NCBI RefSeq assembly: GCF_003918875.1
Contig: NW_025766525.1
Coordinates: 438,865 to 502,864 of the forward strand
Reading direction: 5' to 3'
From: Haliotis rubra
Taxonomy: Eukaryota
DNA length: 64,000 nucleotides
Part shown: positions 38,372 to 41,361 of the stretch, in pieces
How positions within the stretch are numbered: position 1 is the first letter of the stretch
Layout: every line of letters starts with the position of its first letter
Made by a program: the position numbers and the translations under genes
The notes under the pieces: model-generated
Seen by the model: only the letters and a program-made list of their open reading frames with translations
What the model was told of the DNA's origin: nothing
Database searches by the model: none

Positions 38372-41003
38372 GTGTGACATGATGGTGGTATTAGACTGTG
38401 TGACATGGTGGTGGTATTAGACTGTGACATGATGGTGGTATGAGACTGTGTGACATGTTGGTGGTATTAGACTGTGACATGATGGTGGTATTAGACTGTG
38501 TGACATGATGGTGGTATTAGACTGTGTGACATGATGGTGGTATTAGACTGTGTGACATGATGGTGGTATTAGACTGTGTGCCATGATGGTATTAGACTGT
38601 GTGACATGATGGTGGGTGATAGACTGTGTGACATGATGGTGGTATTCTACTGTGTGACATGATGGTGGTATTCTACTGTGTGACATGATGGTGGTATTCT
38701 ACTGTGTGACATGATGTTGGTATTAGACTGTGATATGATGGTGGTATTCTACTGTGTGACATGACGGTGGTATTCTACTGTGTGACATGATGGTGGTATT
38801 CTACTGTGTGACATGATGGTGGTATTCTACTGTGTGACATGATGGTGGTGATAGACTGTGTGACATGATGGTATTCTACTGTGTGGCATGATGGTGGTAT
38901 TCTACTGTGTGACATGATGGTGGTGATTAGACTGTGTGACATGATGGTGGTATTAGACTGTGTGATATGATGGTGGTATTAGACTGTATGACATGATGGT
39001 ATAGTGGTATTGTGTGACTGGTGTAGACTGTGTGACATGATGGGTGGTATTAGACTGTGTGACATGATGGTATAGTGGTGGTATTAGACTGTGTGACATG
39101 ATGGTGGTATTAGACTGTGTGACATGATGGTATAGTGGTATTCTACTGTGTGACATGATGTGGTGAGTATTAGACTGTGTGACATGATGGTGGTATTAGA
39201 CTGTGTGCCATGATGGTGGTATTAGACTGTGTGACATGATGGTGGTATTCTACTGTGTAGACATGTGGTATTAGATGACATGGTGGTATACTGTGATGAC
39301 TGTGTGACATGATGGTGGTATTCTACTGTGTGACATGATGGTGGTATTAGACTGTATTGACATGATGGTGGTATTAGACTGTGTGACATGATGGTGGTAT
39401 TAGACTGTGTGACATGATGGTGGTGATTCTACTGTGTGACATGATGGTGGTATTAGACTGTGACATGATGGTGGTATTCTACTGTGTGACATGATGGTAT
39501 TAGACTGTGGTATGGTGGTATTCTACTGTGTGACATGATGTTGGTATTAGACTGTGTGACATGATGGTGGTATTCTACTGTGTGACATGATGGTATTGAC
39601 TGTGTGACATGATGGTGGTATTAGACTGTGTGACATGATGGTGGTATTAGACTGTGTGACATGATGGTGGTGATAAGACTGTGTACTGTGTGACATGATG
39701 GTGGTATTCTACTGTGTGACATGATGGTGCTATAAGACTGTGTGACATGATGGTGGTATTAGACTGTGTGACATGATGGTATTCTACTGTGTGGCATGAT
39801 GGTGGTGATAAACTGTGTGACATGATGGTGGTATTAGACTGTGACATGATGGTGGTATTAGACTGTGTGATATGATGGTGGTATTAGACTGTATGACATG
39901 ATGGTATAGTGGTATTAGACTGTGTGACATGATGGTGGTATTAGACTGTGTGACATGATGGTATAGTGGTATTAGACTGTGTGACATGATGGTGGTATTA
40001 GACTGTGTGACATGATGGTATAGTGGTATTAGACTGTGTGACATGATGGTGGTATTAGACTGTGTGACATGATGGTATAGTGGTATTCTACTGTGTGACA
40101 TGGTGGTATTGGACTGTGTGACATGATGGTGGTATTAGACTGTGTGACATGATGGTGGTATTCTACTGTGACATAATGGTGGTATTAAACTGTGTGACAT
40201 GATGGTGGTATTAGACTGTGTGACATGATGGTGGTATTAGACTGTGTGACATGATGGTGGTATTCTACTGTGCGTGATGGTGGTATTCTACTGTGTGACA
40301 TAATGGTGGTATTCTACTGTGTGACATGATGGTGGTATTAGACTGTGTGACATGATGGTGGTATTCTACTGTGTGACATGATGGTGGTATTCTACTGTGT
40401 GACATGATGGTGGTATTAAACTGTGTGACATGATGGTGGTATTAGACTGTGACATGATGGTGGTATTAAACTGTGTGACATGATGGTGGTATTAGACTGT
40501 GTGACATGATGGTGGTATTCTACTGTGTGACATGATGGTGGTATTAGACTGTGACATGATGGTGGTATTAGACTGTGTGACATGATGGTATTAGACTGTG
40601 TGACATGATGGTGGTATTAGACTGTGTGACATGATGGTGGTATTAGACTGTGTGACATGATGGTGGTATTCTACTGTGTGACATGATGGTGGTATTAAAC
40701 TGTGTGACATGATGGTGGTATTAGACTGTGTGACATGATGGTGGTATTAGACTGTGTGACATGATGGTGGTATTAGACTGTGTGACATGATGGTGGTATT
40801 CTACTGTGTGACATGATGGTGGTATTAGACTGTGTGACATGATGGTGGTATTAGACTGTGTGACATGATGGTATTAGACTGTGTGACATGATGGTGGTAT
40901 TAGACTGTGTGACATGATGGTGGTATTAGACTGTGTGACATGATGGTGGTATTAGACTGTGTGACATGGTGGTGGTATTCTACTGTGTGACATGGTGGTG
41001 GTA
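38372..41003. repeat. Minisatellite, 26 bp unit (gactgtgtgacatgatggtggtatta), about 100 copies
   Basis: Direct reading. Variants ctactgtg and gactgtg alternate. Confidence 0.9.
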
Positions 41004-41246
41004 TTAGACTGTGAAGTTAAGATGATATTGTGTGTTCTGTGATGCAGGATGTCTATGGCACCCCAGGTATTAGACTGTGAAGTAAAGATGATATTGTGTG
41101 TTCCATTGATGCAGGATGTCTATGGCACACCAGGTATTAGACTTTGAAGTAAAGATGATATTGTGTGTTCCGTGATGCAGGATGTCTATGGCACCCCAGG
41201 TATTAGACTGTGAAGTAAAGATGATATTGTGTGTTCCGTGATGCAG
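41000..41246. repeat. About 68 bp unit x4 tandem repeat made from the exon-4 acceptor, the first 19 nt of exon 4 and one unit of the 26 bp minisatellite
   Basis: gtgaagtaaagatgatattgtgtgttccgtgatgcag|GATGTCTATGGCACCCCAG|gtattagact is repeated four times. The fourth copy continues into the real exon (…CCCCAGGAAGGACATC…). Confidence 0.85.
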
Positions 41247-41361
41247 GATGTCTATGGCACCCCAGGAAGGACATCTTGTGTCTGCTGAGTCAGCAACAAT
41301 GCAGCTTCTACTTCCGACACACTCACAACAAGAGCAGCTATGCCTTCCCTCAGTTGGAAAG
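41247..41361 (+). CDS. WDCP: WDCP-like gene, coding exon 4 (G|GCLWHPRKDILCLLSQQQCSFYFRHTHNKSSYAFPQLE, phase 1 in, phase 2 out)
   Basis: Acceptor gtgatgcag|G and donor GAAAG|gtgagt. It continues exon 3 in phase. Recollected WDCP has LPQGCVWHPKSAILTVL here. Confidence 0.6.

What the first reader, a model, noticed from the sequence alone, without database searches (positions are those of the whole stretch)
41000..41361. The exon-4 acceptor and first 19 coding nucleotides are tandemly quadruplicated and fused to the upstream 26 bp minisatellite
Four roughly 68 bp copies of …gtgatgcag|GATGTCTATGGCACCCCAG|gtattagact… precede the real exon. In the copies, the exon sequence is followed by gtattag, which is a unit of the 38372-41003 minisatellite and also a plausible 5' splice site. 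Each copy is therefore a potential 19 nt cryptic micro-exon with both splice signals. Including one copy would shift the frame, because 19 = 1 mod 3. This looks like a snapshot of minisatellite expansion capturing exon sequence.
Basis: seen in the sequence. Interest (0 to 1): 0.6.

Follow-up and report, generated by a model that had tools for sequence, protein, structure and literature searches.

The report
Tandem-repeated splice acceptor ("mirage") at WDCP exon 4
A 66-base stretch holding the end of an intron, its splice acceptor and the first 19 bases of an exon of a WDCP-like gene is repeated four times head to tail; this kind of repeat is already known from amphioxus ("mirages") and, at the other splice site, from human genes, where it normally leaves splicing undisturbed.

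Summary
TRF finds a 66/67-bp repeat at 41000-41266, with 4.0 copies and 95% matches. Each unit holds 14 nt from the end of the 26-bp minisatellite (38370-41013), the 33 unique last intron bases with the AG acceptor, and the first 19 nt of an exon. The fourth unit is the authentic one.

The exon (41247-41361) is coding exon 4 of a WDCP-like gene (Pfam PF15390). Its boundaries are the same in a gastropod and an annelid ortholog.

Also, read-through from any upstream acceptor stops at once (..CLWHPRY*), three copies together stay in frame, and a splice from a junction GT to the AG at 41264-41265 would restore the normal mRNA.

Nothing here shows that the copies are used. The junction donor CAG|GTATTA is mediocre, and 34% of the window is tandem arrays.

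The class is known: "mirages" in amphioxus, and human boundary minisatellites that repeat the donor site (F7 intron 7). In the published cases these pseudo-sites are reported as mostly silent.

Verdict: an ordinary, probably near-neutral boundary duplication in a mollusc-like genome. It is a new member of a known kind and of low interest.

In passing: the Nucella ortholog has similar copies at three exons, and exon 7 here carries a frameshifting 13-nt duplication.

The parts
38370..41013 (+). 26-bp intronic minisatellite (unit CTGTGTGACATGATGGTGGTATTAGA, about 102 copies) in intron 3 of the WDCP-like gene. Its last unit supplies the first 14 nt of the 66-bp unit.
   Evidence: TRF, (85% matches, score 3616); sequence. 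56 copies of GGTATTAG lie inside the array.
41000..41266 (+). Boundary-spanning tandem repeat ('mirage'-type). There are 4 units of 66/67 bp, each made of 14 nt of array end, 33 nt of unique intron tail with a branch-point-like TGAT and the acceptor, and 19 nt of exon start.
   Evidence: TRF, (period 66, 4.0 copies, 95%, score 490). Alignment. Pairwise differences of 1-3 substitutions and one 1-nt indel.
41001..41066 (+). Unit 1: pseudo-acceptor AG at 41046-41047, 19-nt exon copy at 41048-41066, then junction GT at 41067-41068.
   Evidence: Two substitutions relative to unit 4.
41067..41133 (+). Unit 2 (67 nt): pseudo-acceptor AG at 41113-41114, exon copy at 41115-41133 with C>A (would read Thr instead of Pro), then junction GT at 41134-41135.
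41134..41199 (+). Unit 3: pseudo-acceptor AG at 41179-41180, exon copy at 41181-41199, then junction GT at 41200-41201.
   Evidence: One substitution relative to unit 4.
41200..41265 (+). Unit 4, the authentic copy: acceptor AG at 41245-41246 and the first 19 nt of exon 4. The AG at 41264-41265 is the site that could in principle receive a junction donor and restore the normal mRNA.
41247..41361 (+). Coding exon 4 (115 nt, enters in phase 1) of the WDCP-like gene, encoding (G)CLWHPRKDILCLLSQQQCSFYFRHTHNKSSYAFPQLE. Its donor AAG|GTGAGT is the strongest in the gene.
   Evidence: tblastn and homology. Pfam PF15390, E=1.3e-32. Splice sites and continuous reading frame. Same exon boundaries in Nucella and Paralvinella. 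Donor score 12.3 bits.
41439..43991 (+). 20-bp minisatellite (about 128 copies) starting 77 nt after the exon 4 donor. Exon 4 therefore sits on a small island between two arrays of about 2.6 kb each.
   Evidence: TRF. Distances.
35301..35461 (+). Coding exon 3 (..NVQSLHWS..QPIPQ, donor AAG|GTAAAG). This donor must be joined to one of the four acceptors.
44601..44673 (+). Coding exon 5 (SGRITCGTWSEDGQRLVLCVGTVVL). It fixes the reading frame leaving exon 4.

Best explanation
This is a young tandem duplication of minisatellite type that spans the intron 3 / exon 4 boundary of a WDCP-like gene in a genome very rich in tandem repeats. The amphioxus literature calls such a structure a 'mirage'.

**Origin (inferred).** Before the event, the 26-bp array ended only 33 nt upstream of the acceptor. 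A slippage or unequal-exchange event duplicated a 66-bp segment. Its breakpoints lay in the last 26-bp unit and 19 nt into the exon, and only a G on each side (GG) is shared at the junction. Further rounds brought the number to four units, which have since picked up 1-3 differences each.

**Function (inferred by analogy, not shown).** Productive mRNA comes from the last acceptor (41246|41247). It is the only one followed by the rest of the exon and, 115 nt downstream, by a near-consensus donor. The three upstream copies are pseudo-acceptors that are mostly silent. When one is used, it yields a transcript with an immediate stop (..CLWHPRY*) or a frameshift, which would probably be removed by nonsense-mediated decay.

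The element therefore has no function of its own. It is a neutral or slightly deleterious by-product of minisatellite turnover, and its copy number probably varies between individuals.
For: **Structure and exon**
- The repeat and its unit composition are shown directly.
- The exon is real and its boundaries are conserved. Pfam WDCP gives E=1.3e-32. The best homologs are Nucella at 62% and Argopecten at 63%. The same Q|G..E|S exon limits occur in Nucella and in the annelid Paralvinella.

**Consequences of using the copies**
- Only the last acceptor gives an open frame without further splicing. Upstream acceptors give RY*.
- The authentic donor scores 12.3 bits and the junction donors 3.9 bits. 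453 GTs in the window score at least 3.9.

**Repeat-rich background**
- 34% of the window and 38% of the gene span lie in tandem arrays. Arrays come within 17-72 nt of exons 6 and 7. A repeat crossing one exon boundary is therefore unsurprising.
- The Nucella ortholog has comparable copies of acceptor plus exon start at three exons.

**Precedents**
- Amphioxus mirages include units made of an intron 3' end plus the 5' part of an exon (BflGb6). Copy number differs between haplotypes, and RT-PCR suggests regular splicing is not disturbed (PMC3087553; PMC3902484).
- The human F7 intron 7 repeat reiterates the donor, yet only the authentic site is used (PMC1557585).
Against: - No transcript data could be consulted, so the silence of the pseudo-acceptors is inferred only by analogy.
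- The three pseudo-acceptors are intact. Over at least 47 nt upstream and 19 nt downstream they are nearly identical to the authentic one.
- They lie 181-314 nt from the strong donor, which is still within the exon-definition range (general knowledge). Some mis-splicing is therefore plausible.
- On the rough PWM the junction donor (3.9 bits) beats one authentic donor of the same gene, exon 2 TGA|GTATGT at 2.4 bits.
- Exon 7 of this same gene copy carries a frameshifting 13-nt duplication. This allele may already be non-functional, in which case 'normal splicing is maintained' need not hold.
- Copy-number polymorphism was not testable.
Confidence: 0.77

Rival explanations
1. The copies act as decoy ('poison') acceptors or 19-nt micro-exons that are really used. 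Part of the pre-mRNA would be diverted into frameshifted or stop-containing transcripts, so that copy number tunes WDCP output. This is essentially the first reader's reading.
For: - All AG and GT signals are intact in the three extra units.
- Local acceptor context is the same as for the authentic site. The junction donor has CAG|GTA and is no weaker than the authentic exon 2 donor on a rough PWM.
- Every partial inclusion gives a premature stop.
- In the human IFI6 and CBS boundary minisatellites, the first one or two pseudo-donors are used constitutively (cited in PMC1557585).
Against: - There is no expression evidence.
- The donor lacks the +4 to +6 consensus, and 453 GTs in the window score as well.
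- A 19-nt exon with 47-48-nt intervals is sterically unfavourable (general knowledge).
- Amphioxus mirages and the F7 repeat leave normal splicing intact.
- With about 7 mutations over 199 nt, the survival of the 12 signal bases is expected by chance (P about 0.65, my estimate). The intact signals therefore do not indicate selection.
Confidence: 0.12
2. Intron gain in progress (Rogers/Hellsten type, or the 'mirage' model of Ebner et al.). Exon 3 would be joined to the first acceptor (41048). The junction donor at 41066|41067 would then be spliced to the AG at 41264-41265. This removes units 2-4 as a new 199-nt intron and leaves the mRNA unchanged, splitting exon 4 into a 19-nt exon and a 96-nt exon.
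For: - The in-silico splice of micro-exon 1 or 3 to the AG at 41264-5 reproduces the normal coding sequence exactly.
- Tandem duplication with an AG|GT has been shown experimentally to create a functional intron (PMC3265369).
- The same route was proposed for amphioxus mirages (PMC3087553, Fig. 7 legend).
Against: - The receiving AG (..GGCACCCCAG|G) has a short, T-poor pyrimidine tract, with 9 of 17 pyrimidines and only 4 T. It also lies 19 nt after a much better acceptor.
- The donor is weak.
- The route needs three coordinated choices, whereas direct use of the authentic acceptor needs one.
- No transcript evidence exists, and the product could not be told apart from normal mRNA without read-level data on intermediates.
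Confidence: 0.04
3. Assembly artefact: the true genome has one copy, or a different number, and the four units come from mis-assembly next to a 2.6-kb minisatellite.
For: - The repeat adjoins a long, imperfect array, which is a hard region to assemble.
- The amphioxus BflGb6 mirage was reported as aberrantly assembled in the draft genome (PMC3087553).
- The same gene shows an odd 13-nt duplication in exon 7.
Against: - The whole repeat is only 267 bp, well within single reads.
- The units carry their own substitutions and one indel, unlike a stutter artefact.
- An independent assembly of another mollusc shows comparable structures in the same gene.
Confidence: 0.05

Closest known systems
[quoted passage not shown] Described for Adh3 (Canestro et al. 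2002, as cited), TnC, globin BflGb6/BflGb9 and PGBD5 (PMC3087553, PMC3902484).
   Same: - Head-to-tail units that contain a splice site plus the adjoining intron and exon parts.
- BflGb6 is exactly the same type: the 3' end of an intron plus the 5' part of the exon, with the authentic copy last.
- The unit length of 66 bp is within the reported range (10-160 bp).
- Units are 81-100% identical there and about 95-98% here.
- AG/GT signals are retained in the copies.
- The genome is minisatellite-rich.
   Different: - The taxon differs. The best protein matches here are molluscs at 54-65% identity, and no match approached identity to any species in the database.
- This mirage is directly fused to a much larger array of a different period (26 bp).
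- Haplotype polymorphism and undisturbed splicing are documented for amphioxus but could not be tested here.
Human minisatellites whose first monomer spans an exon-intron boundary: F7 intron 7 37-bp repeat, and IFI6 (6-16), CBS intron 13, LMNB2 and PDGF (PMC1557585).
   Same: - An intronic minisatellite reiterates an authentic splice site many times with identical sequence.
- This raises the same question of how the right copy is chosen.
- The pseudo-sites are functional in principle but normally silent (F7), or only the nearest ones are used (IFI6, CBS).
   Different: - Those arrays reiterate the donor (5' splice site) and lie downstream of the exon. This one reiterates the acceptor (3' splice site) and lies upstream.
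- The authentic site is the first copy there and the last copy here. The '5'-to-3' scanning picks the first site' rule from F7 cannot simply be carried over.
Intron creation by tandem genomic duplication containing AG|GT (Rogers model; Hellsten et al. 2011, PMC3265369).
   Same: A tandem duplication yields a GT in an early copy and an AG in the last copy. Joining them would remove the redundant copies and leave the peptide unchanged.
   Different: - In that model the duplicated segment lies inside coding sequence and already holds AGGT. Here it spans an existing intron-exon boundary, and the AG|GT is created at the duplication junction, with the GT coming from the 26-bp array.
- An ordinary acceptor already solves the problem, so no new intron is needed.

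Membership tests
Mirage (tandem duplication of an intron/exon boundary) | Head-to-tail (minisatellite-like) repetition of a short unit | tested here: met
   TRF gives period 66, 4.0 copies, 95% matches and score 490. The units align over their full length.
Mirage (tandem duplication of an intron/exon boundary) | Each unit contains a splice site with both intron and exon sequence | tested here: met
   Each unit holds a 47-nt intron part ending in AG plus 19 nt of exon start.
Mirage (tandem duplication of an intron/exon boundary) | One terminal unit is the authentic boundary of a real, expressed exon | tested here: met
   Unit 4 continues into a 115-nt exon whose product matches WDCP orthologs. 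The exon limits are shared with Nucella and Paralvinella. Expression itself was not tested.
Mirage (tandem duplication of an intron/exon boundary) | Copy number unstable or polymorphic between haplotypes or individuals | not testable with these tools
   No second assembly or reads of this species were found.
Mirage (tandem duplication of an intron/exon boundary) | Regular splicing is not disturbed | not testable with these tools
   No transcript data were available. Only in-silico consequences were worked out.
Human-type boundary minisatellite reiterating the donor site (F7 intron 7, CBS, IFI6) | The first monomer spans the exon-intron (donor) boundary, so that the 5' splice site is reiterated | tested here: not met
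   The repeat spans the intron-exon (acceptor) boundary and the authentic copy is the last one. The GTs in the copies arise at unit junctions.
Intron creation by tandem duplication (Rogers/Hellsten) | The duplicated segment lies within coding sequence and contains a pre-existing AGGT | tested here: not met
   The segment spans an existing intron-exon boundary. The original exon reads CAG|GAAGG, and the GT comes from the array end.
Intron creation by tandem duplication (Rogers/Hellsten) | Splicing from the GT of an early copy to the AG of the last copy leaves the mRNA unchanged | tested here: inconclusive
   This is possible on paper: donor 41066|41067 to the AG at 41264-5 restores the normal coding sequence. 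Actual use is untested, and the receiving site has a poor pyrimidine tract.
NAGNAG / closely spaced tandem acceptors | Alternative AGs a few nucleotides (typically 3) apart that share one branch point and pyrimidine tract | tested here: not met
   The acceptors are 66-67 nt apart, and each has its own copy of the upstream 47 nt.
WDCP protein family (host gene) | Significant match to Pfam PF15390 above the gathering score | tested here: met
   113.5 bits against a cutoff of 25.3, E=1.3e-32, profile positions 19-176. The homologs found also carry PF15390.

The most novel reading that the evidence does not exclude
Duplications of acceptor plus exon start may arise preferentially at the 3' splice sites of this gene, or of mollusc genes in general. 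One is seen here at exon 4, and others at exons 3, 4 and 5 of the Nucella lapillus ortholog. That could reflect a duplication mechanism linked to splice sites. Alternatively it could provide a copy-number-tunable set of decoy acceptors, or the first step of exon splitting and intron gain, outside cephalochordates.
Probability: 0.07. Interest if true: 0.6.

Novelty: new member of a known kind. Interest (0 to 1): 0.25.

Why it matters
The feature is a natural acceptor-side counterpart of the human F7 intron 7 donor repeat. Four nearly identical 3' splice sites, each with its own branch-point and pyrimidine region, compete for one donor, and only the last gives a readable message.

With transcript data it could serve as a small natural test of how 3' splice sites are chosen, by exon definition or by proximity. 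It also extends 'mirage' structures from amphioxus to a mollusc-like genome.

It matters for annotation as well. Gene predictors can pick a wrong acceptor here, and variation in copy number could be mistaken for a damaging variant. Beyond that it is most likely a neutral by-product of the very high tandem-repeat load of this genome.

Tried and rejected
1. **The unique intron tail and exon start as diverged 26-bp units.** If true, the exon start would derive from the minisatellite. The best local alignment score was 13, and 181 of 500 shuffles did as well. Rejected.

2. **RNA structure masking the upstream acceptors.** The 391-nt region folds no better than shuffles (z=+0.47). No support.

3. 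**A gene on the minus strand.** The 118-aa ORF at 41070-41426 is a by-product of the repeat. It has no Pfam hit and no record in the collection.

4. **Further copies of the unit elsewhere in the window.** None were found. tblastn of the gene's own exons against the window found no partial copies of other exons.

5. **Other individuals or the same species.** No protein approaching identity was found. Encoding contigs were not on record for the Argopecten and Mytilus orthologs. The short metagenome contigs cover exons 2-3 only. Polymorphism and species identity remain open.

6. **Whether sharing exon 4 with Nucella is meaningful.** Nucella has such copies at 3 of about 8 mapped exons, so a coincidence has a probability of about 0.4. 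This is not evidence of a hotspot.

7. **Splicing around the 13-nt insertion in exon 7.** Only GT..AG intervals of 11-18 nt are available, which are too short to be introns. Rejected.

8. **Literature searches.** Searches for 'cryptic exon + minisatellite' and for acceptor duplications gave little.
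Full report
**What is in the sequence.** Reading 40700-41700 and running Tandem Repeats Finder shows three adjoining arrays.
- A 26-bp minisatellite lies at 38370-41013 (about 102 copies, 85% matches).
- A 66-bp-period repeat lies at 41000-41266 (4.0 copies, 95% matches, score 490).
- After a 172-nt gap, a 20-bp minisatellite lies at 41439-43991 (about 128 copies).

The four units of the middle repeat are 41001-41066, 41067-41133 (67 nt), 41134-41199 and 41200-41265. They differ from one another by 1-3 substitutions and one single-base insertion. 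Each unit has three parts:
- GTATTAGACTGTG, preceded by a shared G, which is the end and start of the 26-bp unit;
- 33 unique nucleotides ending in ..TTCCGTGATGCAG;
- the 19-mer GATGTCTATGGCACCCCAG.

The 19-mer occurs four times (41048, 41115 with one mismatch, 41181, 41247) and nowhere else in the window. Shuffled sequence gives none. The period is 66/67 rather than 68, the fourth copy is the authentic one, and the stated acceptor positions are a few bases too low.

**The exon and the gene.** Open frames flanked by splice signals on the plus strand join into one continuous reading frame. The mapped coding exons are:
- exon 1, 12639 to about 12693, MELGRATLRGNGLNLL..;
- exon 2, 27115-27232;
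- exon 3, 35301-35461;
- exon 4, 41247-41361;
- exon 5, 44601-44673;
- exon 6, 45732-45799;
- exon 7, 50117-50242, and further exons downstream.

The product matches Pfam WDCP (PF15390, 113.5 bits, E=1.3e-32). Its best database relatives are:
- WDCP-like proteins of the gastropod Nucella lapillus (62%) and the scallop Argopecten irradians (63%);
- Mytilus (54%), the annelid Paralvinella (49%) and Batillaria (65% over half the query).

No protein approaching identity was found, so the species is not in the protein collection. The taxon is best described as mollusc-like.

Exon 4 encodes (G)CLWHPRKDILCLLSQQQCSFYFRHTHNKSSYAFPQLE. The same exon, with the same limits (after ..PQ and before SG/EK..), is present in Nucella and Paralvinella. 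The duplicated 19 nt encode the conserved CLWHP motif.

**How the repeat probably arose (inference).** Before the duplication, the 26-bp array ended only 33 nt upstream of the acceptor. The duplicated segment runs from inside the last 26-bp unit to 19 nt into the exon. The two breakpoints share only a G on each side (GG), which fits slippage or unequal exchange at minimal homology followed by further rounds of amplification. The unique intron tail and exon start are not diverged 26-bp units. This is a separate repeat of longer period that abuts the array, not an expansion of the 26-bp array itself.

The background is extremely repeat-rich. 34% of the window and 38% of the gene span are tandem arrays. 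Arrays come within 17 and 72 nt of exon 6 and within 41 and 59 nt of exon 7. A repeat that happens to cross one exon boundary is not surprising here.

**Consequences for splicing (in silico).**
- Joining exon 3 to any of the three upstream acceptors and reading through gives ..QPIPQGCLWHPRY followed by a stop.
- Including all three adds 57 nt in frame (19 residues, no stop).
- Splicing a junction donor (41066, 41133 or 41199) to the AG at 41264-41265 restores the normal message. Via unit 2 it carries a Pro-to-Thr change.

**Signal strength.** The PWM is rough and uses human-like frequencies recalled from memory.
- The four acceptors have the same local context, with 10 of 17 pyrimidines and a TGAT branch-point-like motif at -22.
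- The junction donor CAG|GTATTA scores 3.9 bits, against 12.3 for the exon 4 donor AAG|GTGAGT.
- The other authentic donors score 7.6-9.0 bits, except exon 2 (TGA|GTATGT), which scores 2.4.
- 453 plus-strand GTs in the window score at least 3.9.

The donor is thus possible but undistinguished. The region has no unusual RNA structure (z=+0.47).

**Most likely mode of operation.** The last acceptor is the only one followed by the remaining 96 nt of exon and, at 115 nt, by a near-consensus donor. By exon definition (established knowledge) it should be strongly favoured. The upstream copies are followed after 19 nt by a weak donor, which is an unfavourable micro-exon arrangement, and they give nonsense transcripts if used. 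I therefore conclude that they are largely silent pseudo-sites or feed a minor, degraded transcript fraction. This step is inferred, because no transcript data could be examined.

**Comparison with what is known.** The literature search turned up direct precedents.
- Ebner et al. 2010 (PMC3087553) describe 'mirages' in amphioxus. [quoted passage not shown] 2002, as cited there). [quoted passage not shown] The two haplotypes carry 6 and 3 units, the units are 81-100% identical, most retain AG/GT, and RT-PCR suggests regular splicing is not disturbed. The authors propose mirages as a route to intron gain.
- Pavelitz et al. [quoted passage not shown]
- Borensztajn et al. 2006 (PMC1557585) study the case at the other splice site. 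The human F7 intron 7 37-bp minisatellite has a first monomer spanning the exon-intron boundary. Only the authentic donor is used, although the pseudo-sites are functional. They list IFI6, CBS, LMNB2 and PDGF as further examples, and in IFI6 and CBS the nearest pseudo-donors are used.
- Hellsten et al. 2011 (PMC3265369) show experimentally that a tandem duplication with an AG|GT can create a functional intron. The mRNA-restoring route noted above is a variant of that idea.

The present element meets the structural criteria of a mirage (see the membership table). Polymorphism and undisturbed splicing could not be tested. It does not meet the defining feature of the F7-type arrays, which is donor reiteration, nor that of the Rogers/Hellsten model, which is a duplicated exonic AGGT.

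**Side observations.**
- In the Nucella lapillus ortholog (L001), three consecutive exons each have upstream partial copies made of intron end, acceptor and the 5' part of the exon.
  - Exon 3 has a 105-nt copy at 90% identity, 167 nt upstream.
  - Exon 4 has a 76-nt copy at 91% identity, 137 nt upstream.
  - Exon 5 has a 55-nt copy at 89% identity, plus a second truncated copy. With the authentic exon these form a three-unit array with an AT-rich intron tail.
- The annelid ortholog has none. Boundary duplications thus occur outside amphioxus, at least in this gene in two mollusc-like genomes.
- With 3 of about 8 Nucella exons affected, the coincidence at exon 4 is not significant.
- Exon 7 in the window carries an imperfect 13-nt tandem duplication (50178-50190) that shifts the frame and gives a stop inside the exon. 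Deleting it restores ..SLVCATELPLESLCKQRDMFVVP, which matches the orthologs, and the downstream exons remain in the restored frame. This copy may be a null allele, a very young pseudogene or an assembly error. If it is real, selection on correct exon 4 splicing may be relaxed on this haplotype.

**Verdict.** The interpretation as potential micro-exons is formally correct but unsupported and, by precedent, unlikely to be the main behaviour. The element is a new member of a known kind, a boundary-spanning minisatellite or 'mirage'. It is of low to moderate interest, mainly as a natural acceptor-side test case for splice-site choice and as a caution for annotation.

Noticed in passing
L001 (Nucella lapillus JBNHDL010000653.1:485924-516892): 11156-11260 vs 11323-11427; 12361-12436 vs 12498-12573; 19043-19097 and about 19099-19195 vs 19303-19375: In the Nucella WDCP ortholog, three consecutive exons (3, 4, 5) each have upstream partial copies made of intron end, AG acceptor and the 5' part of the exon. 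Identity is 89-91%. Exon 5 forms a three-unit array. These are mirage-like structures in a second mollusc, including at the exon orthologous to the one in the finding.
   Followed up: partly
window 50178-50190 (within exon 7, 50117-50242): An imperfect 13-nt tandem duplication (GTGTGTGCGACCC / ATGAGTGCGACCG) shifts the frame of exon 7 and gives a stop (..VCATHECDRVAARVTV*). Removing it restores a sequence that matches the orthologs, and the downstream exons are intact. It may be a null allele, a young pseudogene or an assembly error.
   Followed up: partly
window 1-64000; gene span 12639-55748: 34% of the window and 38% of the WDCP gene span consist of minisatellite arrays with periods of 12-172 bp, several of them 1-2.6 kb long. 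Almost every intron holds at least one. Arrays start 17 nt after the exon 6 donor (45817) and end 72 nt before its acceptor, and they lie 41 and 59 nt from exon 7.
   Followed up: partly
window 49792-50075: A 137-bp unit repeated 2.1 times at 98% identity ends 41 nt upstream of the exon 7 acceptor. It does not include exon sequence.
   Followed up: no
window 27232|27233: The homology-inferred donor of exon 2 is TGA|GTATGT. It scores only 2.4 bits on a rough PWM, weaker than the junction donors of the repeat.
   Followed up: no
window about 2838-3856 (+): Open frames that, to my eye, resemble a Tc1/mariner-type transposase (helix-turn-helix part ..RLEAGEPQSAVARHFNVHQSPISRLW.., and ..DNATSQTGRVTVRYL..LPWPSQSLDLNPI..), broken over several frames. 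This looks like a decayed transposon. It was not checked against any library.
   Followed up: no
window 11834-12273, 53951-54124, 56704-57015, 61759-62010, 63782-64000: A dispersed repeat seen as recurring frame translations (..SGPDSIIY(R/I)PPPYSWN(V/I)AEC.VKLNSLT.. and ..CVNQVSEPDHPIPL..) on both strands, probably a short interspersed element. One copy lies just upstream of WDCP exon 1.
   Followed up: no
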